A stretch of 64,000 nt of DNA from Candidatus Krumholzibacteriia bacterium (GCA_963836185.1 CAWIIQ010000001.1:1440001-1504000); one strand, 5' to 3'. Shown: positions 19,881 to 52,885, counted from the first letter of the stretch. A program made the numbers and translations. Notes: generated by a model not told the origin, from the sequence alone.

Positions 19881-20534
19881 ATGAGCTTGACTAGAGTACT
19901 GGTTGCGGCCGCAATCGCCCTTTCAATCCCAGCCCTCGCTTCGGGGGAGATAACAACGAGCCATATAGCATCTGACGCTGAACTGGTAGCGATGCTGTCC
20001 GACACGATGTTCGTCTCGGAAGGAAGGATAGGCGATCTAGGCGGCGCCGCTACGTTCGAGCTCGATCTCGGCCAGGATACCGGGGCGCCGTTTGTGTCGG
20101 CTCAGTACGCGTGGCAGAGTGGAGTAGTCGAACCCTTCATGATCACGTACGATGCAGGAACCAGTCTGGTTACATTTACACTCGGAGGGGTGACGCTCAA
20201 CTACAATACCCCGTGGTTCGATTTCGACCAGGTCTTCGTCAGGACGAGGGCCGTAAACGAGGGTAGCTCGGTGATGGTAAGCGACATCGTCATCGACGGG
20301 GAGAGCGTGATGGATCAGTCGCAGGCGGTCGGAAACGGCCTCGATAACCTCTGGATACAGGGAGCGATGCTGAACGACGGTTTCACCCTCACGGGAAACG
20401 CCGTCCTGTCCTGGACCGGGGCTGCGCCGACGCAGTCGCGTCTCGCCTTCCAGGTCAAGGTAGGAAAGCTCGGAATCGTTTCCACGGAGGAAAGCAGCTG
20501 GAGCGAGATAAAGAAGAGCTCCAGCATCGATTGA
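19881..20534 (+). CDS. Secreted protein, choice-of-anchor W-like domain, SW.xIK tail
   Basis: Signal peptide; 'FVSEGRIGD...FELDL', 'FTLTG...LSWTG..PTQSRLAFQVKVG'; tail 'VSTEESSWSEIKK'. Confidence 0.7.
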   Translation: MSLTRVLVAAAIALSIPALASGEITTSHIASDAELVAMLSDTMFVSEGRIGDLGGAATFELDLGQDTGAPFVSAQYAWQSGVVEPFMITYDAGTSLVTFTLGGVTLNYNTPWFDFDQVFVRTRAVNEGSSVMVSDIVIDGESVMDQSQAVGNGLDNLWIQGAMLNDGFTLTGNAVLSWTGAAPTQSRLAFQVKVGKLGIVSTEESSWSEIKKSSSID

Positions 20535-20560
20535 CATTTCCGATATCGCCTGGATCCATC

Positions 20561-20591
20561 AAAGGGGCCGCATCACGCGGTCCCTTTTTTT
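20561..20591 (+). terminator. Rho-independent terminator
   Basis: AAAGGGGCCGC-atcac-GCGGTCCC-TTTTTTT. Confidence 0.8.
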
Positions 20592-20677
20592 ATTGAAGGC
20601 CGAAGCGGTGACACGGTATAGTATGGCAGTCGCGCGGGCGGTCGGTACCGTGCCGGGCGGGGTGGAACGTTTTCCGT

Positions 20678-21340
20678 GTGGATGATGAAGGGAGGAAGAT
20701 GATGAGGAGGATGTTCCGTTTCTTTTATTGCCTCTGCGTGATCCTCGCCGCTACAGCGGCACTTACGGGGATTTCCGATGGACAGGTCCTTATCAACGAG
20801 TACATGCCTGACCCGGCCAGGGACTGGGACGGTGATGGCGAGTACGACTATCGCAGTGACGAATGGGTAGAGATCGTGAACACAGGCGACTCGGCAGTCG
20901 ATCTGAGCGCTTTTCTGCTCAGGGACGGTGGAGACCAGGTCCTCTGGAGGTACGGATTTTCCGGTGAGCTTGCTCCCGGGGAGACCAGGATTGTCTACGG
21001 GAGCGACGCTCTCGCATGGGAGGAAGCCAACGAGTTCCCCTCATACGGGCTCAGTCTCAATAATGCCGGCGACGAGATATTTCTCTGCCATATCGTCGAG
21101 GCCGAGACGCTCGTGGTGGACAGTTCCGCTTATGGAAGGAGCGCCGTCGATGACAGGTCGATCGGCAGAACAGTCGCCGACAGCAGTGTCTGGGCGATAT
21201 ACGATGCATGGAATCCCTGCTCGGACAGCTGCTCTCCGGATGGGAACGGCTGCATACCCACGCCTGGCGGGGTGAACGACTGTACGACCGCGGGCGCTCA
21301 GCAGAGCTGGGGTTCGATCAAGATGATCAAGAGGAGGTAG
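20678..21340 (+). CDS. Secreted lamin-tail-domain protein with SWGxIK tail
   Basis: 'VLINEYMPDP..DWDGDG..DEWVEIVN', 'LSLNNAGDEI', 'PTPGGVN'; tail 'QQSWGSIKMIKRR'. Confidence 0.8.
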   Translation: MDDEGRKMMRRMFRFFYCLCVILAATAALTGISDGQVLINEYMPDPARDWDGDGEYDYRSDEWVEIVNTGDSAVDLSAFLLRDGGDQVLWRYGFSGELAPGETRIVYGSDALAWEEANEFPSYGLSLNNAGDEIFLCHIVEAETLVVDSSAYGRSAVDDRSIGRTVADSSVWAIYDAWNPCSDSCSPDGNGCIPTPGGVNDCTTAGAQQSWGSIKMIKRR

Positions 21341-21451
21341 GCCCGCGGGCCGGCCCCGCCGAATAAATATGAAGATGTTCCATCCCCCCGGCGGCCGGCC
21401 CTGCTTCCTTTTCCGTTTACCCTCGCTCCTCCGTGTGCTAGCGTTTGAGAT

Positions 21452-23185
21452 ATGAAGGATTCAGATAAACAGGAAACAGGTACCGTGCTTCCAGGCAGGT
21501 ACGATGACGAGGTCATCAACCGCTGCTGGGAATATCTCGAGTGCAAGAACTCGGACTGTCCCGCGTACGGCCAGGATGAATCTCCCTGCTGGGAGGTCAC
21601 CGGCCACCGGTGCGGGGACAGGGTATTCGCGCGTCTCGAGGAGAAGCTGATCCAGTGCTGTTTCAAGTGCCCGTTCTTCAAGCAGCTCAAGGAAAGGGTC
21701 AAGGGGCGCAGGTGGGCTGATATTACACTGCTCGAGACGCTCGAGGATGCCCTCATCAGATCTTCGAAGTATTCCACCAAGGTCGAGGACCTCTACATGG
21801 AGGTCATCAGGCGCAGCAAGCTGATGAACCTTCTCGGCGAGGTAAGCAAGATAATCGCGAGGCTCGACAAGGAGGAGGATATCATCCTCGCCATCCTGAC
21901 CGTCACAACGGCACGGGAGGGACTGGGATTCAACAGGGCTTTCGCATTCCTTCGGGGCCAGGAATACAATCTCCTGCGCGGCAAGTACGCCCTGGGGCCT
22001 TCATCGCCCGAGGAGGCCGAGTCGATCTGGAAGATCCTCGACAAGGACAGCGACGCCTCTCTCGAGAAGCTGGTCAGCAAGGGCCAGAAGCTGCATTACC
22101 TGAGAAACAGTCCCCTCACGAAGATAACGCGGCGATATGCCATTTCACTCGATGACGAGGAAGGGATGATAGCTACCGGGATGAGCGAGGTCCGGTTCAT
22201 CTCGGGCAGGGATCTCAAGTCGGCAGGAGACCGGGAGATCGCCAGCGCCCTGGGCCTCGAGGACTTCTGCATAATCCCGATAGCCACGGTCGAGGACAGG
22301 CTGGGCCTGCTTATCGTCGATAATATCTTCACTGGCAAGGAAGTGACGGCCGAGGATGCGCATCTTTTAGAGATGGTTGTAAGTCACGCTACAACATCAC
22401 TTCGCGCGGCGCAGTTAAAGGAATCTCTAGGCAAGAATGTGGAGAGCCTCAAGGCCACTCACAGGAAACTCAAGGCGAACGAGGAGAGGATGCTCAGGGC
22501 CGAAAGGCTCGCTATCTCCGGAGAACTGACTTCCTCCGTCCTCCACGAGATCAAGAATCCGCTCGTCGCTATAGGCGGATTCGCCAGGAGTCTGTGGGAG
22601 AACGGGAAATTCGCCGAAAAGGACCGTGAAAAGGTCGAAATAATCATGAACGAGGCGCAGAGACTCGAGACTTATCTCGGCAGCCTGCAGTCGAACGTGA
22701 GCAGGCTGAAGATCGAGGACAGCGATATAAACCAGATAGTCGACGATGTCTGTCAGCTGATGCAGAATGAATTCTCGGAGCGCAACATCGAGCTTCGAAA
22801 GAGTTTGGCGCCCGGACTGCCCGGCTGCAGGATCGACCAGGTGAAGCTCCACGAGGCATTTCTGAACATCCTGACGAACGCCTCCGAGGCGATCGGAAAG
22901 GACGGCCGTGTCGTGGTAAGGACCTGGACTGACACCGCCGAGGGGCTCCTGCACATAGAGTTGACCGACAACGGAGGGGGGATCCCGAAGGAGAGGATCT
23001 CCAGGATCTTCATTCCGTTCTTTACTACGAAGGAATCCGGCTCCGGGCTGGGGCTCGCCTTCGTCCACAGGATCGTCCGTGATCACGGGGGGAATATCTC
23101 GGTCACGAGCAAGATGGGCAAGGGAACGACATTTATCATAACGCTTCCCGCCTATCCCCGCGAAGAGGCCGCTGCGCCCTCCTGA
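21452..23185 (+). CDS. Cytoplasmic sensor histidine kinase (Cys-rich two-CW-like domain, GAF, HisKA, HATPase)
   Basis: 'CWEYLEC...CPAY...CWEVTG..C...CCFKCPFF'; LHEIKNPL; DNGGGI, FFTTK, GSGLGL. Confidence 0.85.
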   Translation: MKDSDKQETGTVLPGRYDDEVINRCWEYLECKNSDCPAYGQDESPCWEVTGHRCGDRVFARLEEKLIQCCFKCPFFKQLKERVKGRRWADITLLETLEDALIRSSKYSTKVEDLYMEVIRRSKLMNLLGEVSKIIARLDKEEDIILAILTVTTAREGLGFNRAFAFLRGQEYNLLRGKYALGPSSPEEAESIWKILDKDSDASLEKLVSKGQKLHYLRNSPLTKITRRYAISLDDEEGMIATGMSEVRFISGRDLKSAGDREIASALGLEDFCIIPIATVEDRLGLLIVDNIFTGKEVTAEDAHLLEMVVSHATTSLRAAQLKESLGKNVESLKATHRKLKANEERMLRAERLAISGELTSSVLHEIKNPLVAIGGFARSLWENGKFAEKDREKVEIIMNEAQRLETYLGSLQSNVSRLKIEDSDINQIVDDVCQLMQNEFSERNIELRKSLAPGLPGCRIDQVKLHEAFLNILTNASEAIGKDGRVVVRTWTDTAEGLLHIELTDNGGGIPKERISRIFIPFFTTKESGSGLGLAFVHRIVRDHGGNISVTSKMGKGTTFIITLPAYPREEAAAPS

Positions 23186-23192
23186 ACCCGTA

Positions 23193-23221
23193 TTGACAAA
23201 TCATCCGTCATCGGATAATCT
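23193..23221 (+). promoter_or_regulatory. Sigma70-type promoter of the cobO-meaB-icm operon
   Basis: TTGACA-N17-TAATCT. Confidence 0.55.
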
Positions 23222-23278
23222 TCCCTTTCTACCGGCGAACTGCCGGAGGTCCGCCGGGCATTCAGATGAAAGGTCCTG

Positions 23279-23803
23279 ATGAGCGAGGGAAAGGGAATCG
23301 TCATGCTCTTCACCGGGGACGGCAAGGGCAAGACTACGGCCGCCGTCGGAGCCGCGGTCAGGGCCGCCGGGCACGGGGCTGATGTTCTGATCATCCAGTT
23401 CATGAAGGGAAGGCTCTACGGGGAGCTTGCCGCCGTCGATAAGATCGACAACCTCAGGATAGAGCAGCACGGGAGGGACGAGTTCGTCGACCCGAAGGAT
23501 CCCGAGAAGATAGATATCGAGCTGGCGGAGAAAGGCTGGGCGAGGGCGCTGGAGGCGGTCTCCTCAGGTCCGCCGTCGCTGCTCGTACTCGACGAGATAA
23601 ATGTAGCGGTATCGTTCGGGCTCATTCCGCTCGAGGAAGTCGTACGATTCGTTCGGGAACGGCCCGATGGGATGGACATGATACTCACGGGAAGGTATGC
23701 GGCTCCCGAACTGATCGATATCGCCGATACGGTCACGGAGATGAAAGAGATCAAACATCACTACAACGCAGGCGTTCAGATGAGGAAGGGCATAGAGTAC
23801 TGA
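23279..23803 (+). CDS. cobO: Cob(I)alamin adenosyltransferase (CobA/CobO/BtuR)
   Basis: FTGDGKGKTTAA, IQFMKG, LVLDEI, ILTGR, KHHY...RKGIEY. Confidence 0.92.
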   Translation: MSEGKGIVMLFTGDGKGKTTAAVGAAVRAAGHGADVLIIQFMKGRLYGELAAVDKIDNLRIEQHGRDEFVDPKDPEKIDIELAEKGWARALEAVSSGPPSLLVLDEINVAVSFGLIPLEEVVRFVRERPDGMDMILTGRYAAPELIDIADTVTEMKEIKHHYNAGVQMRKGIEY

Positions 23804-23805
23804 CG

Positions 23806-24771
23806 ATGCGCGGACGTCCCGATATCGAGAGGCTGCTCGAACTCTTTGCCGAGGGAAAGGTAGCCGCTGCTGCGCGCCTGATCACTATCCTTGAGGATGG
23901 CGGGGAGGATGCCGAGCGCGTTCTCGACAGCGTCTTCCATAAGACGGGCAGCGCGTACAGGATAGGTTTTACCGGCCCTCCGGGAGCAGGCAAGAGTTCA
24001 CTGCTCAACAGGATCACCGCAAAGTTCCGCGAGAAGGATCACAGGATAGGTATCATAGCTATCGACCCAACGAGCCCATTTACCGGCGGGGCCCTTCTCG
24101 GAGACAGGATAAGGATGCAGGCTCATTCGGAGGATCCCGAAGTCTTTGTCCGAAGCCTCGCGAGCAGGGGAGCCCTCGGAGGGATATCGAACTGTACCGA
24201 TGAAGTCGTCGACCTGATGGACGCTTTCGGCAAGGACCTCGTAATGATAGAGACTGTGGGCGTCGGCCAGTCTGAACTCGAGATCTCGGAGAAGGCGCAC
24301 ACCGTGGTGGTAGTGCTCGTCCCCGAGTCGGGCGACGGGATCCAGGCGATGAAAGCCGGGCTGATGGAGATCGGCGACATCTTCGTGATGAACAAGGCCG
24401 ATCACGATGACGCAGAAAGCGCAGCGAGAGAGATACAGGATACTCTTAGATTGAAGGATATCCCCGAAGGTGACTGGGAGCCGAGGGTCGTTCTTACTTC
24501 GGCCCGGGAGGAGACGGGGATAGGCGAACTTATAGATGTCATAGAGGAGCACCGCCGCCATCTGGAGGAGGGCGGACATTTTGCCAGCATGAGAAAGAAG
24601 ATACTGCGCTCGAGGGTCCGCAATGCCCTGATGGACAGGATGGAAAGGCGGCTTCGCGCAAGCGTCAAGGTAAGAGCGCTGGTAGAGCAGCGGATGGAAT
24701 CTGTGTACAAGGGTGAAATATCCCCTTACAAGGTCGTCAGGGAACTCGAGGAACTCGTCAACATACAGTGA
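23806..24771 (+). CDS. meaB: Acyl-CoA mutase-associated GTPase MeaB
   Basis: GFTGPPGAGKS, DPTSPFTGGALLGDRIRM, IETVGVGQSE, GDGIQAMKAGLMEI. Confidence 0.95.
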   Translation: MRGRPDIERLLELFAEGKVAAAARLITILEDGGEDAERVLDSVFHKTGSAYRIGFTGPPGAGKSSLLNRITAKFREKDHRIGIIAIDPTSPFTGGALLGDRIRMQAHSEDPEVFVRSLASRGALGGISNCTDEVVDLMDAFGKDLVMIETVGVGQSELEISEKAHTVVVVLVPESGDGIQAMKAGLMEIGDIFVMNKADHDDAESAAREIQDTLRLKDIPEGDWEPRVVLTSAREETGIGELIDVIEEHRRHLEEGGHFASMRKKILRSRVRNALMDRMERRLRASVKVRALVEQRMESVYKGEISPYKVVRELEELVNIQ

Positions 24772-24792
24772 CCGGCGGGAGAAGAAGAGAAG

Positions 24793-26448
24793 ATGGACAG
24801 GAAAAAATACGACGATGAAAAGAAGAAGTTCGAGGAGACACTTTCCGGGTGCGGGTGCCAGGATATCGAGTTCACTACGGTATCGGGTGAACCGGTAGGA
24901 GAGATCTATACACCCGATGAGATCGAGGGATTCGACTACAACGAAAAACTCGGATTTCCCGGCCAGTATCCCTACACGAGGGGCGTCTACCCGAACATGT
25001 ACCGGGGACGCATGTGGACGCAGCGGCAGTTCGCCGGGTTCGGAACGGCGAAGGACACAAACGGCAGGTACCACTATCTGCTCGACCATGGCCAGACCGG
25101 GCTCTCGGTCGCCTTCGACATGCCGACGATCATGGGCTACGACTCGGATCACAAACGCTCGGAGGGAGAGGTCGGCAGGTGCGGCGTGGCGATAGATTCG
25201 CTCAGGGATATGGAGATCCTCTTCGACGGGATCGACCTCGGGGTGATCACGACATCTATGACGATAAACGCTCCCGCCTCGATACTGCTCGCCTTCTATC
25301 TATGCGCCGGCGAGAAGAAGGGGACATCGCTGGACAGGATGGGCGGCACTATCCAGAACGACATACTCAAGGAGTACATCGCACAGAAGTCGTGGATATT
25401 TCCTCCCGAGGAGTCGATGAGGATAATCACGAATATCCTCGCTTTCTGTTCCGACCATGTTCCGAGGTGGAACACGATATCGATCAGCGGTTACCACATC
25501 CGCGAAGCGGGCTCGACGGCGATACAGGAACTGGCATTCACGCTGGCCGACGGATTCGCTTACGTCGAGGCCGGGATAGCGACGGGGCTGGATGTCGACA
25601 AGTTCGCGCCGAGGCTCTCGTTCTTCTTCAACTCGCATCTCGATTTCTTCGAGGAGATCGTAAAATACCGGGCCGCCCGAAGGATCTGGGCGAAGAGGAT
25701 GAAGGAGAAGTACGGAGCGAAGGATCCGAAATCGATGCTGCTGAGGTTCCATACGCAGACTGCCGGGTGCACGCTGACCGCGCAGCAGCCCGAGAACAAT
25801 ATAGTAAGGACAGCCTTCCAGGGCATGTCGGCCGTGCTGGGAGGGACGCAGTCTCTGCACACGAACTCGATGGATGAGACACTGGCTCTGCCGTCTGAGA
25901 AGGCTGTGATGATAGCGCTGCGCACGCAGCAGATCATCGCTCACGAGACCGGAGTTATCAATACGATCGATCCACTCGCCGGGAGTTATTTCATCGAGGC
26001 GCGCACCGACGAGATGGAGGAGGCGGCGGAGGCCTACTTCAGCAAGATCGACGAGCTCGGCGGTGTCGTCAAGGCTATCGACAAGGGATTCTTCCAGAGG
26101 GAGATCCAGAAATCGGCATACGAGTATCAGAAAGCAGTCGAGGCGGGCCGCAAGATCATCGTGGGGCTCAACCGCTTCGGTCTTGAGAACGAAGAGATAG
26201 ATATCCCGCTCCTGAGGATAGACGAAGAGGTCGAGAGGCAGCAGAAGAAGGCGGTCCACGATACGCGCTCCAGCCGTGACAACGACAAGGTGGCCAGGGA
26301 GCTCGAGCGCCTCAAGGCCGCTGCCGAGGGTACGGATAACCTCATGCCGGTCATAATCGACTGCGCGCGCTGCTACGCGACAGAGGGAGAGATAATAGAG
26401 ACGCTAAAGGGAGTATTCGGCGAATACAAGGAGCCGCTTTTCATATAA
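24793..26448 (+). CDS. icmA: B12-dependent acyl-CoA mutase large subunit, isobutyryl-CoA mutase type
   Basis: MCM-family fold with RQFAGF (Phe) and KEYIAQK (Gln) specificity residues. Confidence 0.8.
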
Positions 26449-26478
26449 CGGGCAGCGTGCCCGGAGGAGGATTCCGAG

Positions 26479-26877
26479 ATGGCGAGAAAAGTCAGGGTGC
26501 TCGTGGCGAAACCCGGACTGGACGGACACGACAGGGGCGCGAAGGTCGTCGCCAACGCACTCAAGGATGCCGGTATGGAGATCATCTACACGGGGCTGCA
26601 CCAGACGCCAGAGATGATAGCCGAATCGGCCGTCCAGGAGGATGTCGACGTAGTAGGCCTGAGCATACTGTCGGGAGCACACATGACGATGTTTCCGAGG
26701 GTGATGGAACTGATCAGGGAAAAGGGAGCGGAAGACATCGTCGTCTTCGGCGGCGGGATCATCCCGGCCGAGGATGTGGAGAAGCTCGAGGAGATCGGAG
26801 TCGCCCGGATATTCGGTCCGGGAACAGACACCGGTGATATCGTCAAGTTTATAAGAGAGAGATTTCCGGAAGAATAA
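26479..26877 (+). CDS. icmB: Cobalamin-binding small subunit of acyl-CoA mutase
   Basis: [14 protein letters not shown] (DxHxxG), [15 protein letters not shown]. Confidence 0.85.
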
Positions 26878-33671: not shown

Positions 33672-33905
33672 TTCATCCTCCTCCCGCGAGGTCGCCTGAG
33701 GCTCCTGCGGGGCGTGGGGGTCCCTGATATCAGACCCGAACATATTATTGAAAGGGGCGTTAAGGGTCAATCGGAATATCATCAGTCGAAATGGTTTGAA
33801 TCCGGTGTGCCATAGGGTTTATCATTGATAATGATAGGACTTGAGAAGTTACGTTGTTTTTAACATCTTACAGAAAGGATGGATACGATGACCTGGAGTG
33901 AGAAT

Positions 33906-34471
33906 ATGAGAAAGATATCGCCTCTATTGATCCTCGTCCTGCTTCCTGTACTGGCCCTGTCGTGCGCCGGGGAAAAGGAGGCCGAGAAGGAAACGGAGAA
34001 ACCGGCTGCGACGAAGGATGAGACTATCGAATATGTCGACGAAGAGGTCAGTTACGGGCTTTTCTTCGATGAAGAGGGGACGAAGAGGACGCTGAAGCTC
34101 AAAAGGGGCCAGGAGGAGTTCATCGGTTATTTCTTCCTCATGGTCCGGCGTACAAGGAGATCTCTTCCACGCAGTTCCGTCTCGTTATGCCGGAAGGCGT
34201 AGTCATCGAGAACGACAAGTACCGGAATGGCAGGGTATTGTCGATGGGCACCTTCGAGAGAGGTATCAGCGAGAATTTCGTGCCGTGCATCCCGGGACCG
34301 AAGATACTGCTTCACACATTCACATTCAGGGTGACGGCTCCTCTCGACAACGCGGTCTTTACGGTACTGCACTCGGTCGACAGTGATTTCCTGGCCGTGG
34401 CCGAATGTGAGGAAGGGTTCCCGATCATAAGGGCATCGGCTTTCAAGGCTGTAGTGAATCCCTCTGATTAG
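33906..34471 (+). CDS. Hypothetical lipoprotein (frameshift near 34143)
   Basis: Lipobox LALSC; ORFs 33879..34202 and 34187..34471 read as one domain. Confidence 0.6.
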
Positions 34472-34479
34472 ATGAAAGT

Positions 34480-37400
34480 ATGATGAACAGCTCATTTATA
34501 AAGAAGATTCTACCGGCAGCTTTGCTGCCGGTTTTTTATTTGCTGCTTTTCAGCGCGGGCGCCGGGGCTATCGTATCGCCGCGCACAGGGGGAGAACTCC
34601 CCGAGGGATTCAGGGCAGCCAAGGATAAGGATCCGCGTTCCTTCCTGCCGGGGAGAGGTTGGATCGAAAGGGCCGCCTCGGTCCGCGCCGGATCGATGCC
34701 AGCCCTGTCTTCAGGCGCCAGGTCACAAGCGGCGCTCTCCGGTACGCTGCGGGTCCCCGTCATAGGCGGGCTATATACGAATTATGTCGGGCATCCACTG
34801 CAGAGCCTTCCCCTGCTGCAGGTAGAGCTTTTTGACGGGCCCTGGTCAACGGGGACTATGGAAGAGTATTTCACGGAAGCATCGAGTGGTCTTTTCAATG
34901 TCACAGGCGAGGTCTACGGATGGGTGGAGCTTGCCAATGACGAGGATTATTACGTCGTCTTTCCTACTGCGGGGACGACGGTCGGTGTATCGAGAACGGA
35001 TGAATTCATCGAGGAGGCTGTAGCCGGCGTCGATGACCAGGTCGATTTCGGTCAATATGACAACGATGGTCCTGACGGGATCCCGAATTCGGGGGACGAT
35101 GACGGGTACGTAGATGTACTGGTCCTGGTCCACCCCGCGTTCGGAGCAGAGTGCACAAGCACTCCTTCCCGCATGTGGTCGCATTCATACCAGTACAGTC
35201 TGTGGGACGGTCAGCCCGGTGGAGCGCTCGCGACGGGAGATCCCTCGGCAAACGGAGGGATGATACTCGTCGATGACTACATCATGGCTCCGACGGTCTC
35301 GTGCGATGAGGGCCTGATCGAGATAGGAGTCTTCTGCCACGAACTCGGGCACACGATCGGGCTGCCGGACCTGTATGACGATTACGGATCGTACGGTATC
35401 GGGTACTGGGGACTGATGGGAAGCGGTAACTGGAACACACCCGAGTCTCCGGCCCATCCCTGCGGGTGGTCAAAGGATCAGCTCGGGTGGGTCGACGTCG
35501 TCGAGATCGGGTGGGAACCTGTCCAGTACGATCTCCAGCCCGTTATCGAGTCGGGCGAAGTGATCCGGATGAGTACTCCGGCAAGGAGGTTCAGGAGGAA
35601 TTATCCGCTATCCCCTGAACAAGGATGGGGAATGGTCTGCGGATACAGTCTGGCTGAAACGGAATTCAGGGAATGGCCGGGTGAAGGGTATGGAAATCTC
35701 TGGGAGGAGTCGATAAGCCGGGCCTTCAGCTTCGACGGCAGCGGCCCTGTCACCCTGGAGTACTATATCGAGACAGATATCGAAGCATATTACGACTTCG
35801 TATATACCGTTCTAAGCTACCAGGATGGATCGGAATCAGAGACGGTCGCTGTCTACACCGGAACGAATCCGCTCTCTCTTGAGTCGATCGACCTGAGCGG
35901 ATATCTTTCCCATCCCCAGATCGATGAGGGGTACTCGATATCGTTTGTGCTTGTCACTGACTACAACTTCAGTGACGAGGACGGTTATTTCCAGTCGACT
36001 TCCGCTCCACCCCTTCTCATCGACGAGGTCAGGGTCTCGGGAGGCGGCGAGGATTATTTCACCGACTTCGAGCAGGATACGGGCGGATGGAGGGAGACAT
36101 CTCCGCAGGCTGAATATTTCATCGTGGAGAACAGGACGAGGACAGGATTCGACGCTCATCTTCCCGGGCAGGGCCTGCTTGTCTGGCACGCGGAAAACAG
36201 TACAGCGTATTCTTTTCTCGGGAATTCAGGGGGGGCGAGCAACAGACAGACGAGGGGACTTGTCCTCGAGGAAGCTGACGGCAACTACGATCTTCTCAAT
36301 GCGGTAAACACAGGTGACGCCGGTGACCCCTTTCCCGGAAGTTCAGCAAAAATCGCTTTTGACTCCTTCACTTTGCCTTCAAGCGATGATAACAACGGGG
36401 AGCCCACCCCTGTCACGGTCACTGGAATAAGCAATGGGGCGGGTCTTTTCAAGGCGGGGATGCCGGCTCCTTCAGTCGCCTCCGTCTATCCCACAGAGGT
36501 CGACAAGGGCGATGATGACACACTTTATTTCGACATCAGAGGCACAGGTATTCTCTACGGGGCGGATTGCTCGATAGCGAGGATGGGGCAGACGCTGCAA
36601 GCCGTTTCAGTTGAATGGCTCGGTGAAAACAGGATCATCGCCGGATTCAGGTCTGTCGGCCTGTTTTCCGGAAGATGGGATGTTACCGTTATCAGCGGAG
36701 ACGGCCAGACGGGCACGCTCGAAGAAGCGCTGACTGTCAATTCAAACATAATCTCCGCGGGCGTTCGGGCAGGGCTTGAATATATAGCGCCGTACTGGTC
36801 CGTCAGCACTGTAGGGAACCTGATCGGCAGCCTTCTCTTCCGGTCCGAGGCGGGCGGGCCTTTCGTCCAGCAGGGGGACACGCTTCGAAACGCGTCGGGC
36901 GATTTCGAATATATCGACGAGGATGTCGTTGCAGGCACTGGATACAGGTACAGTATCAGGGTGATCTACGAGACGATGCACGAAGACTTCGATTTCTCCG
37001 GTGAGTACACGACGATCATCCATGACTTCCAGGTCATCGCTTCAGACGTAAAGGCAGGCCTCTTTTACCTGGAGCCGGTATGGCTCGTCAGCCCGGTCGA
37101 CCGCCTCGTCGGCAGCCTTGTCTTCAGATCGGATGACGGGGGGGCATTCACGCAGCTCGGAGATACGTTGAGGAGCGAGACGGGCGGCTTTGAATATCTC
37201 GATGAGGCTGTGGTGCCGGGAGTGAGCTACCGGTACAGCGCCAGAGTGATCTATGAGTACACTGAAGATGAATTCAATTTTCCAGGGGAATACTCGATCG
37301 GCGAGTACGATTTCCATGTCATCGGTCAGTATCCCAATCCATTCAGCCAGTCGACGAAGATAGCTTTTTTTACGCCAGACCAGAGAACTGTGACGATCAG

Positions 37401-37575
37401 GTTCTACGACGTCTCCGGGAGGCTGGTCGATAGACTCGGCGCCGTAAAATACGATCGCGGTATCCACGAACCCGTCTGGAATCCGGACCCCGGAAAGATC
37501 GCGAGCGGCGTGTATTTCTGTACCGTCTCCGCTGGAAACAGCAGTACTGCGATCAAGGTCGTTCTTGTCAGATGA
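34480..37575 (+). CDS. M6-family (immune inhibitor A-like) metalloprotease with FN3-like duplication and FlgD-Ig/T9SS-like C-terminal domain
   Basis: IGVFCHELGHTIGLPDLYD, WGLMGSG, EYFIVENR, GLLVWH; tail 'YPNPF...SGVYF...KVVLVR'. Confidence 0.88.
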   Translation: MMNSSFIKKILPAALLPVFYLLLFSAGAGAIVSPRTGGELPEGFRAAKDKDPRSFLPGRGWIERAASVRAGSMPALSSGARSQAALSGTLRVPVIGGLYTNYVGHPLQSLPLLQVELFDGPWSTGTMEEYFTEASSGLFNVTGEVYGWVELANDEDYYVVFPTAGTTVGVSRTDEFIEEAVAGVDDQVDFGQYDNDGPDGIPNSGDDDGYVDVLVLVHPAFGAECTSTPSRMWSHSYQYSLWDGQPGGALATGDPSANGGMILVDDYIMAPTVSCDEGLIEIGVFCHELGHTIGLPDLYDDYGSYGIGYWGLMGSGNWNTPESPAHPCGWSKDQLGWVDVVEIGWEPVQYDLQPVIESGEVIRMSTPARRFRRNYPLSPEQGWGMVCGYSLAETEFREWPGEGYGNLWEESISRAFSFDGSGPVTLEYYIETDIEAYYDFVYTVLSYQDGSESETVAVYTGTNPLSLESIDLSGYLSHPQIDEGYSISFVLVTDYNFSDEDGYFQSTSAPPLLIDEVRVSGGGEDYFTDFEQDTGGWRETSPQAEYFIVENRTRTGFDAHLPGQGLLVWHAENSTAYSFLGNSGGASNRQTRGLVLEEADGNYDLLNAVNTGDAGDPFPGSSAKIAFDSFTLPSSDDNNGEPTPVTVTGISNGAGLFKAGMPAPSVASVYPTEVDKGDDDTLYFDIRGTGILYGADCSIARMGQTLQAVSVEWLGENRIIAGFRSVGLFSGRWDVTVISGDGQTGTLEEALTVNSNIISAGVRAGLEYIAPYWSVSTVGNLIGSLLFRSEAGGPFVQQGDTLRNASGDFEYIDEDVVAGTGYRYSIRVIYETMHEDFDFSGEYTTIIHDFQVIASDVKAGLFYLEPVWLVSPVDRLVGSLVFRSDDGGAFTQLGDTLRSETGGFEYLDEAVVPGVSYRYSARVIYEYTEDEFNFPGEYSIGEYDFHVIGQYPNPFSQSTKIAFFTPDQRTVTIRFYDVSGRLVDRLGAVKYDRGIHEPVWNPDPGKIASGVYFCTVSAGNSSTAIKVVLVR
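36751..37320 (+). repeat. Intragenic tandem duplication of about 95 aa
   Basis: 'V.AGL.Y..P.W.VS.V..L.GSL.FRS..GG.F.Q.GDTLR...G.FEY.DE.VV.G..YRYS.RVIYE' occurs twice, 285 nt apart. Confidence 0.85.
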
Positions 37576-46922: not shown

Positions 46923-46949
46923 CGGGCCGCAGGGAAGGTCAACTACCTG

Positions 46950-48200
46950 ATGAAGAAGAAATCACAGTCTCCGAGAGCTATAAAGTGCTCCTTCTGCGGA
47001 CGCGGCCAGGACGAGGTGGCCAAGCTCGTCTCCGGACCGAGCGTCTATATCTGCAACGAGTGCATCCGCCTCTGTAACGAGATCCTCGAGGAGGAGATGG
47101 CCGGCTCCGTCATGTTCGACGACGACCATTTTCCCAAGCCGAAAGAGATCAGGGAATATCTCGACAGTTATGTGATCGGGCAGGACAGGGCCAAGGTCAC
47201 ACTGTCAGTCGCTGTGTACAACCATTACAAGCGGATCAGGCACGAGAGAAGCACTGACGATATCGAGATAGATAAGAGCAACATCCTGATGGTCGGCCCG
47301 ACCGGAGTCGGAAAGACGCTGCTCGCGCAGACTCTTGCCCGGTTCCTCAAAGTCCCGTTCGCCATAGCAGATGCGACAAGCCTTACCGAGGCGGGATATG
47401 TGGGTGAGGATGTCGAGAATATCCTCGTACGGCTGCTGCAGAGCGCCGACTATAATCTTGCCTGGGCGGAGCGCGGTATAATCTATATCGACGAGCTCGA
47501 CAAGATCGCCCGAAAGAGCGAGAATCCTTCGATAACGAGGGATGTCTCGGGAGAGGGTGTTCAGCAGGCTCTTCTGAAGATCCTCGAGGGAACTGTAGCC
47601 AACGTTCCGCCGCAGGGTGGGCGAAAGCATCCCCAGCAGAAGTTCATCGAGGTGGACACGAAAAACATCCTCTTTATCTGCGGCGGTGCTTTCCAGGGTC
47701 TCGAGGAGATCGTGGAGAGGCGGATCGGCCGCAAGGTCGTCGGTTTCGGAGCCGATCGCGGGCCTGGTTACCGTAAGGAAATCAATGAGATAATGAAGCA
47801 TACTCAGCCCGAGGATCTGATCAAGTTCGGGCTTATTCCCGAGCTGGTCGGCAGGCTTCCCATCGTCGCTCCGCTCCAGGATCTCGACGAGGTGGCACTG
47901 ATCGACATCATGCTCAAGCCGAAGAGCGCGTTGGTCAAGCAGTACAAGAAGCTTTTCGACATGGAGGACGTGGAGCTCGAGTTCACTCCCGGTGCTCTGA
48001 AATCTATCGCCAAGCTCGCGATGGAACGAAAGACAGGAGCGAGAGGATTGAGAGCCATACTCGAGGATACTATGCTGACGATCATGTACGACATCCCCTC
48101 GAGACCGGAAGTCAGCAAGATACTGATCAAAGAGGAAACGATCCTGAACAGGGACGAGCCGGAGATCTTCCTCGAGAAGGAAAAACAGAAAAGGGCATAG
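46950..48200 (+). CDS. clpX: ATP-dependent Clp protease ATP-binding subunit
   Basis: CSFCG zinc finger, [32 protein letters not shown]. Confidence 0.97.
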
Positions 48201-48248
48201 AGCCTCGCCGGCACGTTTTATATAGTATTACCCCATTGACGGAGAATA

Positions 48249-50661
48249 GTGAACAGTATGGACGACAGCATCAAAGATACGCCCGATACCATCCTGCCCA
48301 TGGTCCCACTGCGGGACGTCGTGGTCTTTCCGTCCACGACGACAGCCATACTTGTCGGCAGGCAGCCGTCGATCAACGCGGTGGAAAGGGCGATCGAGAC
48401 AGACAAGGTCCTCCTTGTCGTCACGCAGAAGGATCCTTCTGATAACGAACCAGGACCGGAAGGGTTGTATCCCGGTCGGCACGATCGTGCGGATAGGTAT
48501 TTTCCTGAGGCTGCCCGACGGGACCCTCAAGATCATGCTGGAGGGACTCACCAGGGTCAGGATCAACGAGTACGTCGAGATGGATAACTATCTCGGCGCG
48601 AGGGTCGAGCCTTTCGACGAGGCCGAAAGTATGACCAAAGAGGTCGAGGCGTTGTCGCGTAAGGTCGAGGCCCAGTTCGAAGAGTACGTGAAGCTGAATC
48701 AGAGGATCCCCAACGAGGTCATGCTCTCGCTTCAGGCTCTCGATGACAGGTCGACCCTGGCGGACACCGTCGCGGCGCATCTGCAGGTGAGAAACGAGCT
48801 CAAGCAGGAACTGCTGGAGACGACAGGCCTGGAAGATCAGCTCTTGTTTATAAGCCGTACTCTCCTCGAGGAACTGGAGATGCTCCGGCTCGAGAAGAAC
48901 ATAGATGACAAGGTCACAAGCCAGGTGACGAAGAACCAGAAGGAACTCTTCCTTCATGAGAAGATGAAGGCGATCCGCAGCGAGCTCGGGCACGGCGACG
49001 AGGCCGACATGTTCGAGGATCTCGAGAAGAAGATCAAAAGAGCGCGTATGTCCAAGGATGCCCAGAAAATCGCCTGGAAGGAGCTCGAAAGGCTCCGGAT
49101 GATGTCGATGATGAGCCCCGAGGCGACAGTCGTGCGAAATTATATCGACACGCTCGTCGCACTCCCGTGGAAGAAACGGACTAAGGACAATCTCGACATA
49201 AATGACGTCAAAAAGAGACTCGATGACGATCACTACGGTCTCGACAAGGTGAAGGAAAGGATCCTCGAGTTCCTCTCGGTCGTAAAGCTCGCCGGTAAAC
49301 TCAAGGGCCCTATTCTCTGTTTTGTCGGTCCTCCGGGAGTCGGCAAGACCTCTCTGGGGCGTTCGATAGCCGATGCGACGGGGCGCAAATTCGTGCGCGT
49401 TTCCCTCGGTGGTACGAGGGACGAAGCGGAGATCAGGGGGCACAGGCGGACCTATATCGGATCGATGCCCGGCCGCATCATCCAGGGGCTCAAGAAAGCC
49501 GGTTCGCGCAATCCCGTATTCCTGCTCGATGAGATCGACAAGCTCAGCAGCGATTTCAGAGGAGATCCGTCGTCGGCGCTTCTCGAGGTTCTCGATCCCG
49601 AACAGAACAGTCATTTCAGCGATAACTACCTCGAAGTGGATTTCGACGTAAGCGAGGTCATGTTCATCACGACGGCTAACGTGATCTACTCGATTCCGCC
49701 GGCATTGCAGGACAGGATGGAGATCATTCGCCTGCCCGGTTACCTTCTCCATGAGAAGATCAAGATCGCCCAGAAATTCCTTCTGCCGAAGCAGATGGAG
49801 CAGCACGGGATAAAGCCCGATCAGCTTACGATCTCCGAGGCTACTATGAAGGATGTCGTAAGGCAGTATACCCGTGAGTCGGGCGTGAGAAACCTCGAGA
49901 GAGAACTCGCATCTATCTGCCGAAAGGTCGCCAAGAAGCTCGCCTCGGAGGAGAAGACCGGGAAGATAAGGATCACAAGGACGAACATCGAATCGTACCT
50001 CGGGATACCCAAGTTCACTGAGAGTGAGATCGACTCGAAGCTGGCGGTCGGGGTCGCTACTGGACTCGCCTGGACCGAGGCGGGAGGGGAGATCCTCAAT
50101 ATCGAGGTGACCCTGATGCCCGGAAAGGGAGAGTTGATACTTACCGGGCAGCTCGGAGACGTGATGCAGGAGTCAGCCCGGATCGCGATGAGCTATGCGA
50201 GAAACAAGTCGCGGATGCTGAAGCTCGAGAACGACATCTTTTCGACGGTAGATGTGCATGTGCACGTTCCCGAGGGGGCTATACCGAAGGACGGCCCCAG
50301 TGCGGGTATCGCGATCGGTACGGCTCTCGTTTCGGCATTCTTCGACATCCCGATCAAGAGGGACGTCGCCATGACAGGTGAGCTTACTCTTCGAGGCAAG
50401 GTGCTTCCCATCGGCGGGATCAACGAGAAGTCGGTCGCCGCGCTGAGAGCTGGAGTGAAGACTATCCTCCTGCCTAAGGGAAACGAGAAGAACATCAAGG
50501 AGCTCCCCGAAGAGGTCAAAAAGAAGATGAAGATAATCGTCGTCGACAACATAGAGGATGTCCTGAAGAACGCATTATCCAAGCAGCTCGAGTGGGGCGT
50601 CAGGCATCGCGGCAAGATCGGCGGCTTCTTCAACGATTCCGAGCCGAAGCAGGCTAACTGA
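48249..50661 (+). CDS. lon: Lon protease (frameshift near 48474)
   Basis: PLRDVVVFP N-domain; GPPGVGKTS, PKDGPSAG, IGGINEK. Confidence 0.95.
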
Positions 50662-50664
50662 CCG

Positions 50665-51288
50665 ATGAAGATCAGATCACTCGAGCTTGAATCCACTGTT
50701 CTCGATCATTCGGAATTCCCCGGATCGGGGATGCCTGAAATCGCGGTCTCCGGCCGTTCCAATGTCGGCAAATCATCCGTGCTCAATCTCCTTTTCAACA
50801 GGAAGAACCTCGCCCGCACGAGCAGGGAGCCAGGCAAGACGAGGACCGTGAATTTCTTTCTGATAAATGAAAGCTTCTACCTCGTGGATCTGCCCGGGTA
50901 CGGGTACGCGAAGGTGTCCAAAGTACAGAGAGATGCCTGGCAAAGGGTTATCGCTGGGTACATCAAGCACAGGGAGACCCTTTCAGGGGTCATCCAGCTG
51001 GTCGATTCACGCCATGATCCTACGAAAGACGACCTGATGCTCTTCCAGGGGCTGATCGATGCCGAGAAGGATTTTCTTGTAGTCCTTACAAAATCGGACA
51101 AGATCAAGAGATCCCATAGAGCGGCGAAGATCGCAACGCTCAGATCGTACTTTGCAGGCATAAGCGTGGGACCCGCTGGCGGCAGGGATGAGGACGGGGA
51201 GCCGTTCGAGGTGCCGTTCGTCTTCTCCTCGGCCGTTACAAGGGAAGGAAAGGACGAGATCTGGAAATGGATCGAAGAGAGGATCTGA
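50665..51288 (+). CDS. engB: Ribosome biogenesis GTP-binding protein YihA/YsxC
   Basis: GRSNVGKSS, PGKT, VDLPGYGYA, TKSDK. Confidence 0.95.
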   Translation: MKIRSLELESTVLDHSEFPGSGMPEIAVSGRSNVGKSSVLNLLFNRKNLARTSREPGKTRTVNFFLINESFYLVDLPGYGYAKVSKVQRDAWQRVIAGYIKHRETLSGVIQLVDSRHDPTKDDLMLFQGLIDAEKDFLVVLTKSDKIKRSHRAAKIATLRSYFAGISVGPAGGRDEDGEPFEVPFVFSSAVTREGKDEIWKWIEERI

Positions 51289-52410
51289 TACTTCTCACAC
51301 CCGGCCCGGTACACATCGACTCGAGGCGCTTTGCCGCTTTGCCCCCGATGCATCACAGAACAGGACGTTTCCGCGAAATGGTGATCGAAACAGGCCGCAT
51401 GATCGGAGATCTGTGCGGCACCCGGGGAACGGCATTCCTCTTTGCCGCGTCGGGCACGGGAGCAATGGAAGCGATCGTGGCGAATGTGGCGCATCCCGGA
51501 GCGAAGGTCCTCGTCATCGAAGGCGGGAAGTTTGGACGCCGATGGGGAGAGATAGCGCGAGCGTTCGAATGTGAAGTCGATCTTCTCCAGTTCAGCATGG
51601 GTGAAAGTGTGGATCCCACGCTGGTGGCAGAGCGGGTGGAGAAGTCTTCCCCTGACCTTATCGCCCTGACACATGTCGAATCATCGACCGGCCTGCGGCT
51701 GGATCTTGAAGGGATCCTTTCCGCGCTGCCCGACAGGCGGCCGCTGATAGCTCTCGATGCCATCGCTTCGGCGGGATCTGAGAAGATCATGATGGATCAG
51801 TGGGGGATAGATGTTCTTGCCGGAGCGGGGCAGAAGGCACTGGCGGCCCCGGCAGGTGTGAGTTTCGTAATTGCAGGGCCGAGGGCGATGGAGGCTGCAT
51901 CAAGGAATCCGAGGCCCGGATTCTACTTTTCTTTTGACAGGTACGGCGAGGGGATGAATACAGGTGACACTCCATTTACGCCAGCCGTGCATTCGGTGCA
52001 GCTGCTGCACGGGTCTCTGGAAAGTATCCGGGATGCCGGTATGGACGTGGTGCTCGGCAGGCACGAGGCATCTTCAAACGCCCTGTCCAGCGCTTTTGAA
52101 ATACTCGGGATGAGATCGTTCCCTGATCCTTCCCTCGAGATCGGTCCAGGCTTTTCTTCCGCCGGAAGGTATTTCATGTGAAGCAGTTATAGCCTTCCTC
52201 GGCGAAAAGCACGGAATCATTATAGCCGGGGGGCAGGATGAGATGGCCGGGCGGATAATCAGGACGGGATTCCCCGGGATATACAGCGGCCGGGTGCTCG
52301 AAAGGCTTGTCATCGGTCTAGCCGAATCTCTCGGTGCGGGGGATGCGGATGAGGCTCTTGTTCCCCTTGATCCGGTCAGGGACCTGCCGCCCCTTTTTAG
52401 CGCCCCTTGA
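51267..52410 (+). CDS. Class V aminotransferase (serine-pyruvate/alanine-glyoxylate type; frameshift near 52131)
   Basis: LLTPGP, SGTGAME, HVESSTG, DAIAS, GQKAL..PAG, TPFTP; 'IAGGQDEMAGRIIRTG' in +1 frame ending at TGA 52410. Confidence 0.85.
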
Positions 52411-52435
52411 CATAAATGCTTGTCACTGCTATAAT
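52407..52435 (+). promoter_or_regulatory. Perfect consensus sigma70 promoter
   Basis: TTGACA-N17-TATAAT followed by AAGGAGG and a TTG start. Confidence 0.85.
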
Positions 52436-52456
52436 TTGTCTAGTAAGGAGGTGCGG

Positions 52457-52885
52457 TTGAGTCCAAAGCTAAAGCGCCGTGGTCTCATCACGCTTGTAGT
52501 GTGTATCGGGGCATTCACCTCGGGCGCACTGCTCAGCAGCGAGACCTTCATGTCAAAACTCCCCGTATACGAACGCTACAAGTGCGCTTTGTGCCATACT
52601 GTATCCGAGCCTGTTACAGGAAACGCACCTCTCAATACTTTCGGCACCGAATTCCACGCGAACGGAGACAAGTGGGACAATACCCTGGCCGCGAAGGATT
52701 CGGATCAGGACGGATTCTCAAACGGATTTGAGCTCGGTGACGAAGATGGCGATGGGACCTCGACGGTAACCTCAGAAAGAAGCAATCCCGGCGATCCTTA
52801 TGACAGTCCCAGTTCTCTCGATGAGAGGTCCTGGGGTATCATCAAGAAGCTTTTTACCGATGAGCAGAAGCGCAGTATGATGTGA
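52457..52885 (+). CDS. Small secreted CxxCH / temptin-like Ca-binding protein with SWGxIK tail
   Basis: Signal peptide; CALCH, 'LNTFGTEF...W...LAAKDSDQDGFSNGFELGD'; tail 'ERSWGIIKKLF'. Confidence 0.7.
   Translation: MSPKLKRRGLITLVVCIGAFTSGALLSSETFMSKLPVYERYKCALCHTVSEPVTGNAPLNTFGTEFHANGDKWDNTLAAKDSDQDGFSNGFELGDEDGDGTSTVTSERSNPGDPYDSPSSLDERSWGIIKKLFTDEQKRSMM

What the first reader, a model, noticed from the sequence alone, without database searches (positions are those of the whole stretch)
19881..52885. Shared C-terminal SW[G/S]xIK tail on three unrelated secreted proteins: candidate novel sorting signal
Seen: three short proteins with Sec signal peptides and unrelated passenger domains end in the same motif. 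These are 19881..20534 'VSTEESSWSEIKK', 20678..21340 'GAQQSWGSIKMIKRR' and 52457..52885 'LDERSWGIIKKLF'. The motif lies 5-17 residues from the C-terminus, has no TM helix and is followed by basic residues. Known: choice-of-anchor domains are named for occurring with interchangeable C-terminal anchors (PEP-CTERM, T9SS CTD), and here the tail occupies that slot. Inference: a short amphipathic export or surface-attachment signal distinct from PEP-CTERM, LPXTG and the T9SS CTD; the latter type also occurs in this window on the M6 protease. I recall similar TWG.IK tails on hypothetical proteins of FCB candidate phyla but know of no characterised machinery.
Basis: partly seen in the sequence, partly recalled or inferred. 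Interest (0 to 1): 0.8.

Follow-up and report, generated by a model that had tools for sequence, protein, structure and literature searches.

The report
Short helix tag, second PorU sortase
About 30 mostly unrelated small proteins of this uncultured bacterium end in the same short tail, which also recurs in several little-known bacterial phyla and is likely an undescribed surface-sorting tag, probably cut and anchored by a second relative of the type IX secretion sortase whose gene sits beside a conserved set of tagged genes.

Summary
Observation confirmed and much larger than reported. 31 genes of this genome (probably Krumholzibacteriota) end in [VTI][GAS]TEE[ST][ST]WGxIKx(M/I/L)(Y/H/F)(R/K); shuffles give 0.64. 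No Pfam or NCBIfam model matches the tail. It is a predicted amphipathic helix with no membrane span. It sits where relatives carry PEP-CTERM, LPXTG-like or T9SS signals. It is multi-copy in four GTDB phyla.

A conserved gene cluster links it to a candidate enzyme: Ig-dockerin gene, then 1-5 tagged cohesin-fold genes, then a second PorU-like C25 protease with intact His/Cys. Tagged genes lie upstream in 26 of 30 close and 18 of 20 distant loci, against 0 of 13 canonical PorU loci.

Against a strict pairing: 17 of 61 Zixibacteria genomes carry one perfectly conserved tail but no second PorU. Cleavage, export and binding are untested.

Eight literature searches found no description. This scan found the same tail, and once the same cluster, on other genomes.

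The parts
19881..20534 (+). Signal-peptide protein with choice-of-anchor W domain and the tail
   Evidence: NF041928 186 bits; close homologues carry the tail in 112 of 120; distant ones carry PEP-CTERM-like (78 of 150), tail (33) or LPXTG-like (3) ends
20478..20531 (+). Tail of protein 1, VSTEESSWSEIKKSSSID (WS variant)
   Evidence: 20.7 bits
20678..21340 (+). Signal-peptide protein with lamin tail domain and the tail
   Evidence: PF00932 52 bits; tail regex met in 118 of 120 homologues, the two misses having longer extensions
21287..21337 (+). Tail of protein 2, TAGAQQSWGSIKMIKRR
   Evidence: 23.4 bits
52457..52885 (+). Small CxxCH / Temptin_C-like protein with hydrophobic N-terminus and the tail
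   Evidence: PF24784; matches in 37 of 41 genomes, tail kept in 26 of 27 orthologues read
52811..52882 (+). Tail of protein 3, SSLDERSWGIIKKLFTDEQKRSMM (extended variant)
   Evidence: (18.0 bits)
34480..37575 (+). Comparator, not part of the tail system: M6 metalloprotease with a conventional T9SS type A C-terminal domain
   Evidence: PF05547 and PF18962; TIGR04183 41 bits

Best explanation
The tail is a roughly 16-residue end segment shared by 31 mostly unrelated small proteins of this genome, and it likely acts as a sorting tag that a second PorU-like protease probably cuts and swaps for a surface anchor after presumed export through the type IX pore. SHOWN: the tail's position, copy number, passenger diversity and exchange with other anchors; the presence of SprA, PorV-family and two PorU-like genes; the conserved cluster Ig-dockerin gene / tagged genes / second PorU-like gene ('PorU-b' below); the conserved His and Cys of PorU-b. 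PREDICTED: the tail is an amphipathic helix (W, I, M/L, Y/F on one face, an almost invariant Lys) after a flexible acidic linker; the cluster's tagged proteins have a cohesin fold. INFERRED, step by step: (1) Sec export to the periplasm; (2) passage of the folded small protein through SprA, with the helix read by a PorV-family shuttle or by PorU-b itself; (3) PorU-b, which has its own PorU-type C-terminal domain and would be at the surface, cleaves in the linker (most likely before the small residue of [VTI]-[GAS]-[TV]-E, like the PT/GI site of T9SS cargo; cleavage after the Lys is an alternative) and transfers the new C-terminus to an amine on a glycolipid or glycan; (4) canonical PorU, next to PorV, handles the roughly 100 large CTD cargoes, and PorU-b the small tagged ones; (5) the anchored cohesin-fold proteins give docking sites for the co-encoded dockerin protein. 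My odds: portable envelope-sorting signal 0.85-0.9; PorU-b is its processing enzyme, given that, about 0.6.
For: Enrichment and diversity: (22 passenger clusters; signal-peptide heuristic 20 of 31 against 477 of 1843 similar-sized proteins; 30 of 31 without internal TM). Anchor exchange: choice-of-anchor W homologues end in PEP-CTERM-like 78, tail 33, LPXTG-like 3, other 36 of 150 (TIGR02595 confirmed on some). In this genome the cohesin-like, beta-helix and FG-GAP passengers also occur in T9SS-CTD proteins. Machinery: SprA TIGR04189 over cut-off; six PorV-family hits over cut-off; PorU NF033707 554 bits next to PorV; PorU-b at C2:80601-84740 directly after three tagged genes and a dockerin-like gene. 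Linkage: tagged gene within about 1.4 kb upstream of PorU-b in 26 of 30 close loci (23, 3 more; 3 of the 4 misses have under 300 bp upstream); 18 of 20 loci from six other families of the phylum (two have only F/L variants); 11 of 20 loci from genomes picked by the tail; 0 of 13 canonical PorU loci, all 13 followed by PorV instead. Tagged genes are about 1% of genes here. Co-occurrence: PorU-b-level hit (350 bits or more) in 71 of 81 Eisenbacteria-labelled genomes, 72 of 81 with the tail pattern, and in 25 of 31 genomes of a further phylum. PorU-b rows form one side of a branch (24 rows, SH-aLRT 89), apart from PorU (99) (quick tree). His and Cys invariant in 26 of 26 and aligned with the PorU/gingipain dyad region. 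Linker resembles T9SS linkers of this genome: regex 24 of 96 against 7 of 96 control segments, PSSM p=0.009. PMC11969387 (passages) gives the T9SS cleavage consensus PT/GI with a small residue after the cut.
Against: Zixibacteria-labelled phylum: 17 of 61 genomes have one 140-aa exported protein ending in invariant TWGKIKALF[KR], yet 0 of 61 have a PorU-b-level hit (best 260 bits). The seven sampled are canonical PorU with PorV, and none of 21 C25 loci in five tail-positive genomes is PorU-b. So the tail is conserved without PorU-b. G181 (38 tail matches), G191 (13) and G266 (17) show no PorU-b in their assemblies; completeness unknown. Seven Eisenbacteria genomes have PorU-b with no strict tail match; only 2 of those 7 showed a variant tail upstream. 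The four tail-rich phyla are probably related, so co-occurrence is not independent evidence. Known T9SS signals are beta structures of 40 residues or more (PMC11969387), not a helix. PorU-b has no PorV next to it. No GldM/PorM motor was found with TIGR03517 in this 92.5% complete genome. The linker likeness is weak, and many tails elsewhere have Pro at the proposed P1' position. In Eisenbacteria the cluster is mostly not conserved.
Confidence: 0.52

Rival explanations
1. The tail is a sorting signal read by parts shared with Zixibacteria (SprA, a PorV-family shuttle, canonical PorU, or an unidentified factor). PorU-b sits beside the cohesin genes for another reason, for example acting only on them or on the dockerin protein.
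For: The tail is invariant in 17 Zixibacteria genomes without PorU-b. This genome has six PorV-family genes over cut-off, two of them (C1:1618161, plus weaker ones) without an adjacent cargo. Dedicated shuttles for distinct signals are known in Flavobacterium (PMC12618676, passages). Most tagged genes are scattered, not near PorU-b.
Against: Where only canonical PorU exists the tail never expanded beyond 1 copy per genome by the strict pattern; where PorU-b is phylum-wide the tail is multi-copy. No tagged gene lay beside canonical PorU/PorV in 13 loci.
Confidence: 0.22
2. The tail is an uncleaved amphipathic helix that holds proteins on a membrane face or in a receptor groove without covalent attachment, in the periplasm or at the surface.
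For: Hydrophobic moment 0.436 against 0.319 for shuffles (max 0.40 of 200); net charge +1.9 after the Trp. Predicted as a separate helix of lower confidence in two unrelated passengers. W-to-F/L changes are tolerated in two families. Needs no enzyme, which fits Zixibacteria.
Against: Near-invariant Gly and invariant Lys and fixed spacing to the C-terminus (26 of 34 with 9-10 residues after Trp) are stricter than lipid binding needs. It does not explain the conserved link to an intact cysteine protease.
Confidence: 0.18
3. The tail is a known signal in disguise (degenerate PEP-CTERM or remnant T9SS CTD) or a chance resemblance.
For: Same slot as PEP-CTERM in homologues; linker resembles T9SS linkers; the genome has an exosortase-family gene.
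Against: No TM segment; no match to any Pfam or NCBIfam sorting model in 34 proteins scanned against both or in 71 scanned against Pfam. The exosortase has its own adjacent PEP-CTERM protein, the only one over cut-off. Chance is excluded by shuffles and reversed-pattern controls.
Confidence: 0.04

Closest known systems
T9SS type A C-terminal domain (TIGR04183 / PF18962) with the PorU sortase (NF033707, PDB 6za2) and PorV shuttle
   Same: N-terminal signal peptide plus C-terminal signal on many unrelated passengers; a linker like the PT/GI cleavage site; a C25 protease with His/Cys; the same passenger domains use either signal in this genome.
   Different: About 16 residues and a predicted helix, not a 40-82 residue beta structure; passengers are small (70-368 aa, against a median of 705); the linked enzyme is a separate clade scoring 131 against a cut-off of 420, with an xHA[NS]R / GCH site instead of GHG / SC, and no adjacent PorV.
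Short T9SS CTDs of Prevotella intermedia (PMC11969387)
   Same: Shows that T9SS signals can shrink to 40-51 residues and still be cleaved and glycosylated.
   Different: They keep motifs B, D, E and a three-stranded sheet; the tail has none of these.
Tripartite C-terminal sorting domains: PEP-CTERM/exosortase, LPXTG/sortase, GlyGly-CTERM, MYXO-CTERM (10.1101/2023.06.07.544157)
   Same: Short, at the C-terminus, many copies per genome, signature motif, exchangeable on choice-of-anchor W proteins.
   Different: No transmembrane segment, so no inner-membrane stop; the candidate enzyme is a secreted C25 protease, not an intramembrane protease or sortase A.
Cohesin-dockerin anchoring (Clostridium thermocellum OlpC/OlpA type; PF00963, PF00404)
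   Same: The cluster's tagged proteins are predicted single cohesin-fold modules (Foldseek best E 6e-7, OlpC cohesin), encoded after an Ig-dockerin gene.
   Different: 8-15% identity, TM-scores about 0.5, no PF00963 match in 71 members; a diderm host; only two clear dockerin proteins of this type in the genome, no cellulosome enzyme set seen; binding untested.
NCBIfam 'putative PorU2' (NF052324)
   Same: A second PorU-like protein in T9SS genomes.
   Different: PorU-b scores 73.7 against a cut-off of 450, lower than canonical PorU does (120); it is not that family.

Membership tests
Tripartite sorting domains (PEP-CTERM, LPXTG, GlyGly, MYXO-CTERM) | Close to the C-terminus, many copies per genome, signature motif | tested here: met
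   31 genes, 7-17 residues after the Trp
Tripartite sorting domains (PEP-CTERM, LPXTG, GlyGly, MYXO-CTERM) | Hydrophobic transmembrane segment after the motif | tested here: not met
   Mean hydrophobicity about 0, amphipathic instead; only 7-17 residues follow the Trp
Tripartite sorting domains (PEP-CTERM, LPXTG, GlyGly, MYXO-CTERM) | Terminal basic cluster | tested here: inconclusive
   Net +1.9 from Trp to end, usually single K and R rather than a run
Tripartite sorting domains (PEP-CTERM, LPXTG, GlyGly, MYXO-CTERM) | Match to a curated model | tested here: not met
T9SS type A CTD | Match to TIGR04183 / PF18962 | tested here: not met
   No tagged protein scanned matches, while 106 other places in the genome do
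T9SS type A CTD | Beta-sheet or beta-sandwich of 40 residues or more with motifs B, D, E | tested here: not met
   Predicted single helix; definition from PMC11969387 passages
T9SS type A CTD | N-terminal signal peptide | tested here: met
   Heuristic 20 of 31 against 477 of 1843; several misses are frameshifted or mis-started calls; no SignalP
T9SS type A CTD | Cleavage-site-like linker before the signal | tested here: inconclusive
   Weak enrichment, 24 of 96 against 7 of 96
T9SS type A CTD | SprA, PorV and PorU present in the genome | tested here: met
   GldM not found with TIGR03517; PorK/L/N not searched
T9SS type A CTD | Export through SprA, cleavage and attachment to a glycolipid | not testable with these tools
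   needs proteomics or genetics
PorU sortase (for the second C25 protein) | NF033707 above cut-off | tested here: not met
   130.6 against 420; the canonical copy scores 553.9
PorU sortase (for the second C25 protein) | C25 domain with catalytic His and Cys, PorU-like length and C-terminal domain | tested here: met
   PF01364 189 bits, FlgD_ig 26 bits just under cut-off; His and Cys invariant in 26 of 26; best PDB match 6za2 E 3e-32
PorU sortase (for the second C25 protein) | Gene next to porV | tested here: not met
   followed by anmK-like, SpoIID and NagZ-like genes here; canonical copies have PorV in 13 of 13
PorU sortase (for the second C25 protein) | Transpeptidase activity | not testable with these tools
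   needs an assay
Cohesin (for the cluster's tagged proteins) | Cohesin beta-sandwich fold | tested here: met
   AF2 pLDDT 89.5; 40 of 41 listed Foldseek rows are cohesin entries, best E 6e-7; a prediction, not a solved structure
Cohesin (for the cluster's tagged proteins) | PF00963 match | tested here: not met
   0 of 71; nearest named Atlas cluster has PF00963 in 16% of members
Cohesin (for the cluster's tagged proteins) | Binds a dockerin | not tested
Dockerin type I (for the cluster's first gene) | Two calcium-loop/helix repeats, PF00404 | tested here: inconclusive
   PF00404 in 4 of 13 members, best E 1e-5; two D-rich repeats visible in alignment A2

The most novel reading that the evidence does not exclude
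A third class of type IX signal, a 16-residue helix rather than a beta domain, with its own dedicated surface transpeptidase, conserved across at least four uncultured phyla. In the boldest form the enzyme links the cohesin-fold subunits to the envelope or to each other, building a covalent cohesin coat or chain on a two-membrane bacterium, a counterpart of pilus-building sortases, on which dockerin proteins dock.
Probability: 0.3. Interest if true: 0.85.

Novelty: new variant of a known kind. Interest (0 to 1): 0.68.

Why it matters
Known small C-terminal sorting signals rely on a transmembrane helix, and known type IX signals are beta domains. A 16-residue helix with neither property would be a new design. 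It would let thousands of hypothetical proteins in Krumholzibacteriota, Eisenbacteria and neighbouring phyla be annotated as envelope proteins. It offers a role for an orphan, phylum-wide PorU relative. It would extend type IX biology to bacteria in which no PorM motor was detected, and it suggests cohesin-dockerin surface assembly in diderms. The hypothesis is directly testable with one purified enzyme and one small substrate, and a very short surface-display tag would be useful in its own right.

Tried and rejected
Complex prediction of PorU-b (residues 250-1085, alignment A3) with the last 36 residues of a tagged protein: score 0.00 in two runs, 'no answer', controls not folded; it carries no weight either way. 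VIA-align fold comparisons were not obtained, so the cohesin call rests on Foldseek and the Atlas lead. Sequence search of the cohesin-like family against the PDB found nothing meaningful. Exosortase as reader: rejected; one fragmented gene with its own PEP-CTERM neighbour. NCBIfam PorU2 and PorV2 families: below cut-off. A hidden PorU-b in tail-positive Zixibacteria: none among 21 C25 loci of five genomes. The Zixibacteria protein as a shared component of the system: no homologue in this genome; its fold is a small transthyretin-like/Ig sandwich with weak matches only. A PorV-family gene tied to tagged genes: none among nine neighbourhoods in this genome, apart from one tagged gene about 2.7 kb from a PorV on the opposite strand; not profiled across genomes. 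Two matches in called genes (C1:150916 and the DUF2490 barrel at C2:3970) fit the regex but not the HMM and were dropped from the count of 31; one further seed row was not recovered. The careful tree did not finish; the quick tree is quoted. Literature searches that found no description of the tail or cluster; the one 'PorU2' hit (PMC12365241) shows no such protein in the passage returned. Subscription journals and supplements were not covered. Related Trp tails in Poribacteria or Hinthialibacterota (recalled, and in earlier scan notes) could not be reached and were not tested.
Full report
OBSERVATION. The three genes and motifs are in the window as described, on unrelated passengers: choice-of-anchor W, lamin tail domain, and a CxxCH/Temptin_C-like protein. 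I laid the genome (3.50 Mb, 6 contigs, 92.5% complete) and called 3154 genes with a codon model of my own. In all six-frame ORFs, 33 of 36 motif matches lie within 18 residues of a stop. In called genes 34 of 40 matches of the slightly looser motif lie in the last 25 residues, against 0.64 in shuffles. An HMM of the tail gives 31 genes at 17-39 bits and nothing else above 8 (the 31 were in its seed). The consensus is [VTI][GAS]TEE[ST][ST]WG[AS]IKx(M/I/L)(Y/H/F)(R/K), with 9-10 residues after the Trp in most. The assembly has frameshifts (for example in three tagged genes and in sprA), so some lengths are fragments.

NATURE OF THE TAIL. The 31 passengers fall into 22 BLAST clusters; 30 have no internal membrane span; a crude signal-peptide test is met by 20 of 31 against 477 of 1843 proteins of like size. 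They are small (70-368 aa) next to the 103 CTD proteins found by motif (median 705); TIGR04183 matches 106 places. No Pfam or NCBIfam model covers the tail. It is acidic before the Trp (net -1.5) and basic after it (+1.9), with a helical hydrophobic moment above all 200 shuffles. AlphaFold2 models of two unrelated passengers show it as a separate terminal helix of lower confidence. It is exchangeable. Of the best 150 relatives of the window's choice-of-anchor W protein, 78 end in PEP-CTERM-like signals, 33 in the tail, 3 in LPXTG-like signals and 36 otherwise (my regex classes, with NCBIfam confirming PEP-CTERM on some of the 103 scanned). Within this genome the cohesin-like, beta-helix and FG-GAP passengers also occur in proteins with a T9SS CTD. 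The tail is kept in 112 of 120, 118 of 120 and 26 of 27 homologues of the three window proteins.

RANGE. A strict DNA pattern hits 100 of 151 genomes of this phylum (reversed control: 3 genomes, one hit each). Homologue labels and the Atlas point to Krumholzibacteriota. The pattern included the stop codon, so the 131 matches ending at a stop is by construction; their long open frames and signal-like starts are not. A pattern without the stop hits 72 of 81 genomes in the Eisenbacteria-labelled phylum, 12 of 12 in a small third phylum, and 41 and 38 times in two genomes of a fourth; controls were 0. In two families the Trp can be Phe or Leu, so strict counts are lower bounds.

CANDIDATE MACHINERY. 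An earlier scan note suggested a second PorU, and I tested it. The genome has six full C25 proteins. One is canonical PorU (NF033707 554 bits) followed by PorV. Another, PorU-b (C2:80601-84740, 1379 aa; 131 bits), follows a 214-aa Ig-dockerin-like gene and three tagged genes. SprA and six PorV-family genes are present; GldM was not found. The arrangement is conserved: tagged genes upstream of PorU-b in 26 of 30 close loci, in 18 of 20 loci from six other families, with a dockerin-like gene found by regex in 11 of those 20, and in 11 of 20 loci from tail-selected genomes mostly of other phyla, 5 with the dockerin gene (four of the misses are cut by contig ends). None of 13 canonical PorU loci had a tagged gene nearby, though their flanks were shorter. 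PorU-b keeps His and Cys in 26 of 26 aligned rows, with an xHA[NS]R / GCH site, and groups apart from PorU in a quick tree (89 and 99). PorU-b-level hits occur in 71 of 81 Eisenbacteria-labelled genomes (5 more with fragments) and 25 of 31 in the fourth phylum (4 more with fragments). In my own phylum both queries match 149-151 of 151 genomes, but those single-protein searches do not by themselves separate the paralogues. The cluster's tagged proteins (71 aligned, 20% mean column identity, only the tail Lys invariant) are predicted to have a cohesin fold. The first gene matches Dockerin_1 in 4 of 13 members.

RESULTS AGAINST. In the Zixibacteria-labelled phylum 16 of 61 genomes have exactly one strict match. 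Most belong to one 140-aa exported protein, often just after a rex-like gene (label from my recall of the sequence), found in 17 of 61 genomes, always ending TWGKIKALF[KR]. None of the 61 has PorU-b. So the tail is under selection without PorU-b, though it did not spread there. G181, G191 and G266 have many tails and no PorU-b in their assemblies. Seven genomes have PorU-b without a strict match, two of them with a variant upstream. The tail-rich phyla are kin, so their agreement is not independent. The likeness of the linker to T9SS cleavage linkers is real but weak.

MECHANISM. I commit to a T9SS-associated sorting tag processed by PorU-b (0.52). Sec export is followed by passage through SprA, cleavage in the linker and transfer to an envelope amine; anchored cohesin-fold proteins then serve as docking sites. 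Everything from export onward is inference by analogy with PorU, whose action on CTD cargo I take from PMC11969387 and PMC12618676 (passages). The abstract listing of PMC4804311 says PorU cleavage is sequence-independent, which lowers the weight of the linker motif. Rivals: a signal read by shared core parts (0.22); an uncleaved membrane or receptor helix (0.18); a known signal or chance (0.04).

COMPARISON AND NOVELTY. It works like a T9SS CTD or PEP-CTERM in position and exchangeability but is a member of neither: no transmembrane segment (tripartite definition from 10.1101/2023.06.07.544157, passages), no beta domain, no model match. PorU-b is PorU-like but below the family cut-off, and it is not NF052324. 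Eight searches of the open-access library found no description; subscription papers and supplements were not seen, and bioRxiv supplements were closed. Papers seen: PMC11969387 (outline, abstract, passages), PMC12618676 (abstract, passages), 10.1101/2023.06.07.544157 (passages), PMC4804311 (listing, passages), PMC12365241 (one passage). The scan's own notes report this tail on four other genomes and the same cluster on one; I read the cluster note only after finding the cluster here. The Zixibacteria exception and the canonical-PorU control were not in the lines of those notes that I saw.

VERDICT. Real, widespread and apparently undescribed: a new variant of a known kind (C-terminal sorting signal with a sortase-like partner). 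Interest 0.68.

Noticed in passing
G000:C2:77723-84740 (L030:1224-8241), outside the window: The cluster itself: Ig-dockerin gene, three tagged cohesin-fold genes (each frameshifted in the assembly), PorU-b, then anmK-like, SpoIID/LytB and NagZ-like cell-wall recycling genes; in many relatives a gene that looks like murQ follows (label from recall).
   Followed up: yes
L229:9806-10222 and L228-L238, L292-L308 (Zixibacteria-labelled phylum): A single conserved 140-aa exported Ig/transthyretin-like protein ending in invariant TWGKIKALF[KR], usually right after a rex-like gene, in 17 of 61 genomes that lack PorU-b; no Pfam family over cut-off; Atlas look-alikes in Chloroflexota.
   Followed up: partly
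window 33879-34471 (+): Two ORFs that look like one frameshifted lipoprotein (LALSC signal) with a weak match to the cohesin-like profile (30 bits), directly upstream of the M6 protease with T9SS CTD.
   Followed up: partly
G000 whole genome: A type IX set with SprA (split in the assembly), about 100 type A cargoes, two PorU-like and six or more PorV-family genes but no GldM/PorM match; TolQ/ExbD/TonB-like genes lie near one PorV (C4:6399-11494). What powers secretion here is open.
   Followed up: partly
G000:C1:1230982-1235244, C1:1280477-1297334, C1:1969747-1975153, C2:136061-138559, C2:159664-161497, C4:4344-7343: Several large proteins with a variant CTD (ending like KVAIIR, KIAVAK, AVAVIK) are each followed directly by their own PorV-family gene, recalling the dedicated cargo-shuttle pairs of type B signals; one cargo is 5346 aa.
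   Followed up: no
L279-L285 (Zixibacteria-labelled): The gene after canonical PorU is an 800-930 aa protein whose PorV-like part is fused to a long extra region, not a 330-aa PorV.
   Followed up: no
L210:8100-9167, L211, L212, L216, L218: In the fourth phylum a cytochrome c554-like gene (PF13435) is inserted between the tagged genes and PorU-b.
   Followed up: no
L217 (G179:C12:19000-38000) and G179:C49: One Eisenbacteria-labelled genome has three PorU-b-level genes, two in tandem.
   Followed up: no
G000:C1:244051-245159: A lone exosortase-family gene (fragmented in the assembly) beside the genome's only PEP-CTERM protein over cut-off: a dedicated pair.
   Followed up: partly
window 345-3623 (+): 1092-aa exported protein with peptidase MA-like, PD40 propeller and Omp85 barrel domains.
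   Followed up: no
G000:C1:317732-322996 and C3:248820-252771: Large T9SS cargoes with two copies of the same cohesin-like domain, one at each end of the passenger; the second gene is split in the assembly.
   Followed up: partly
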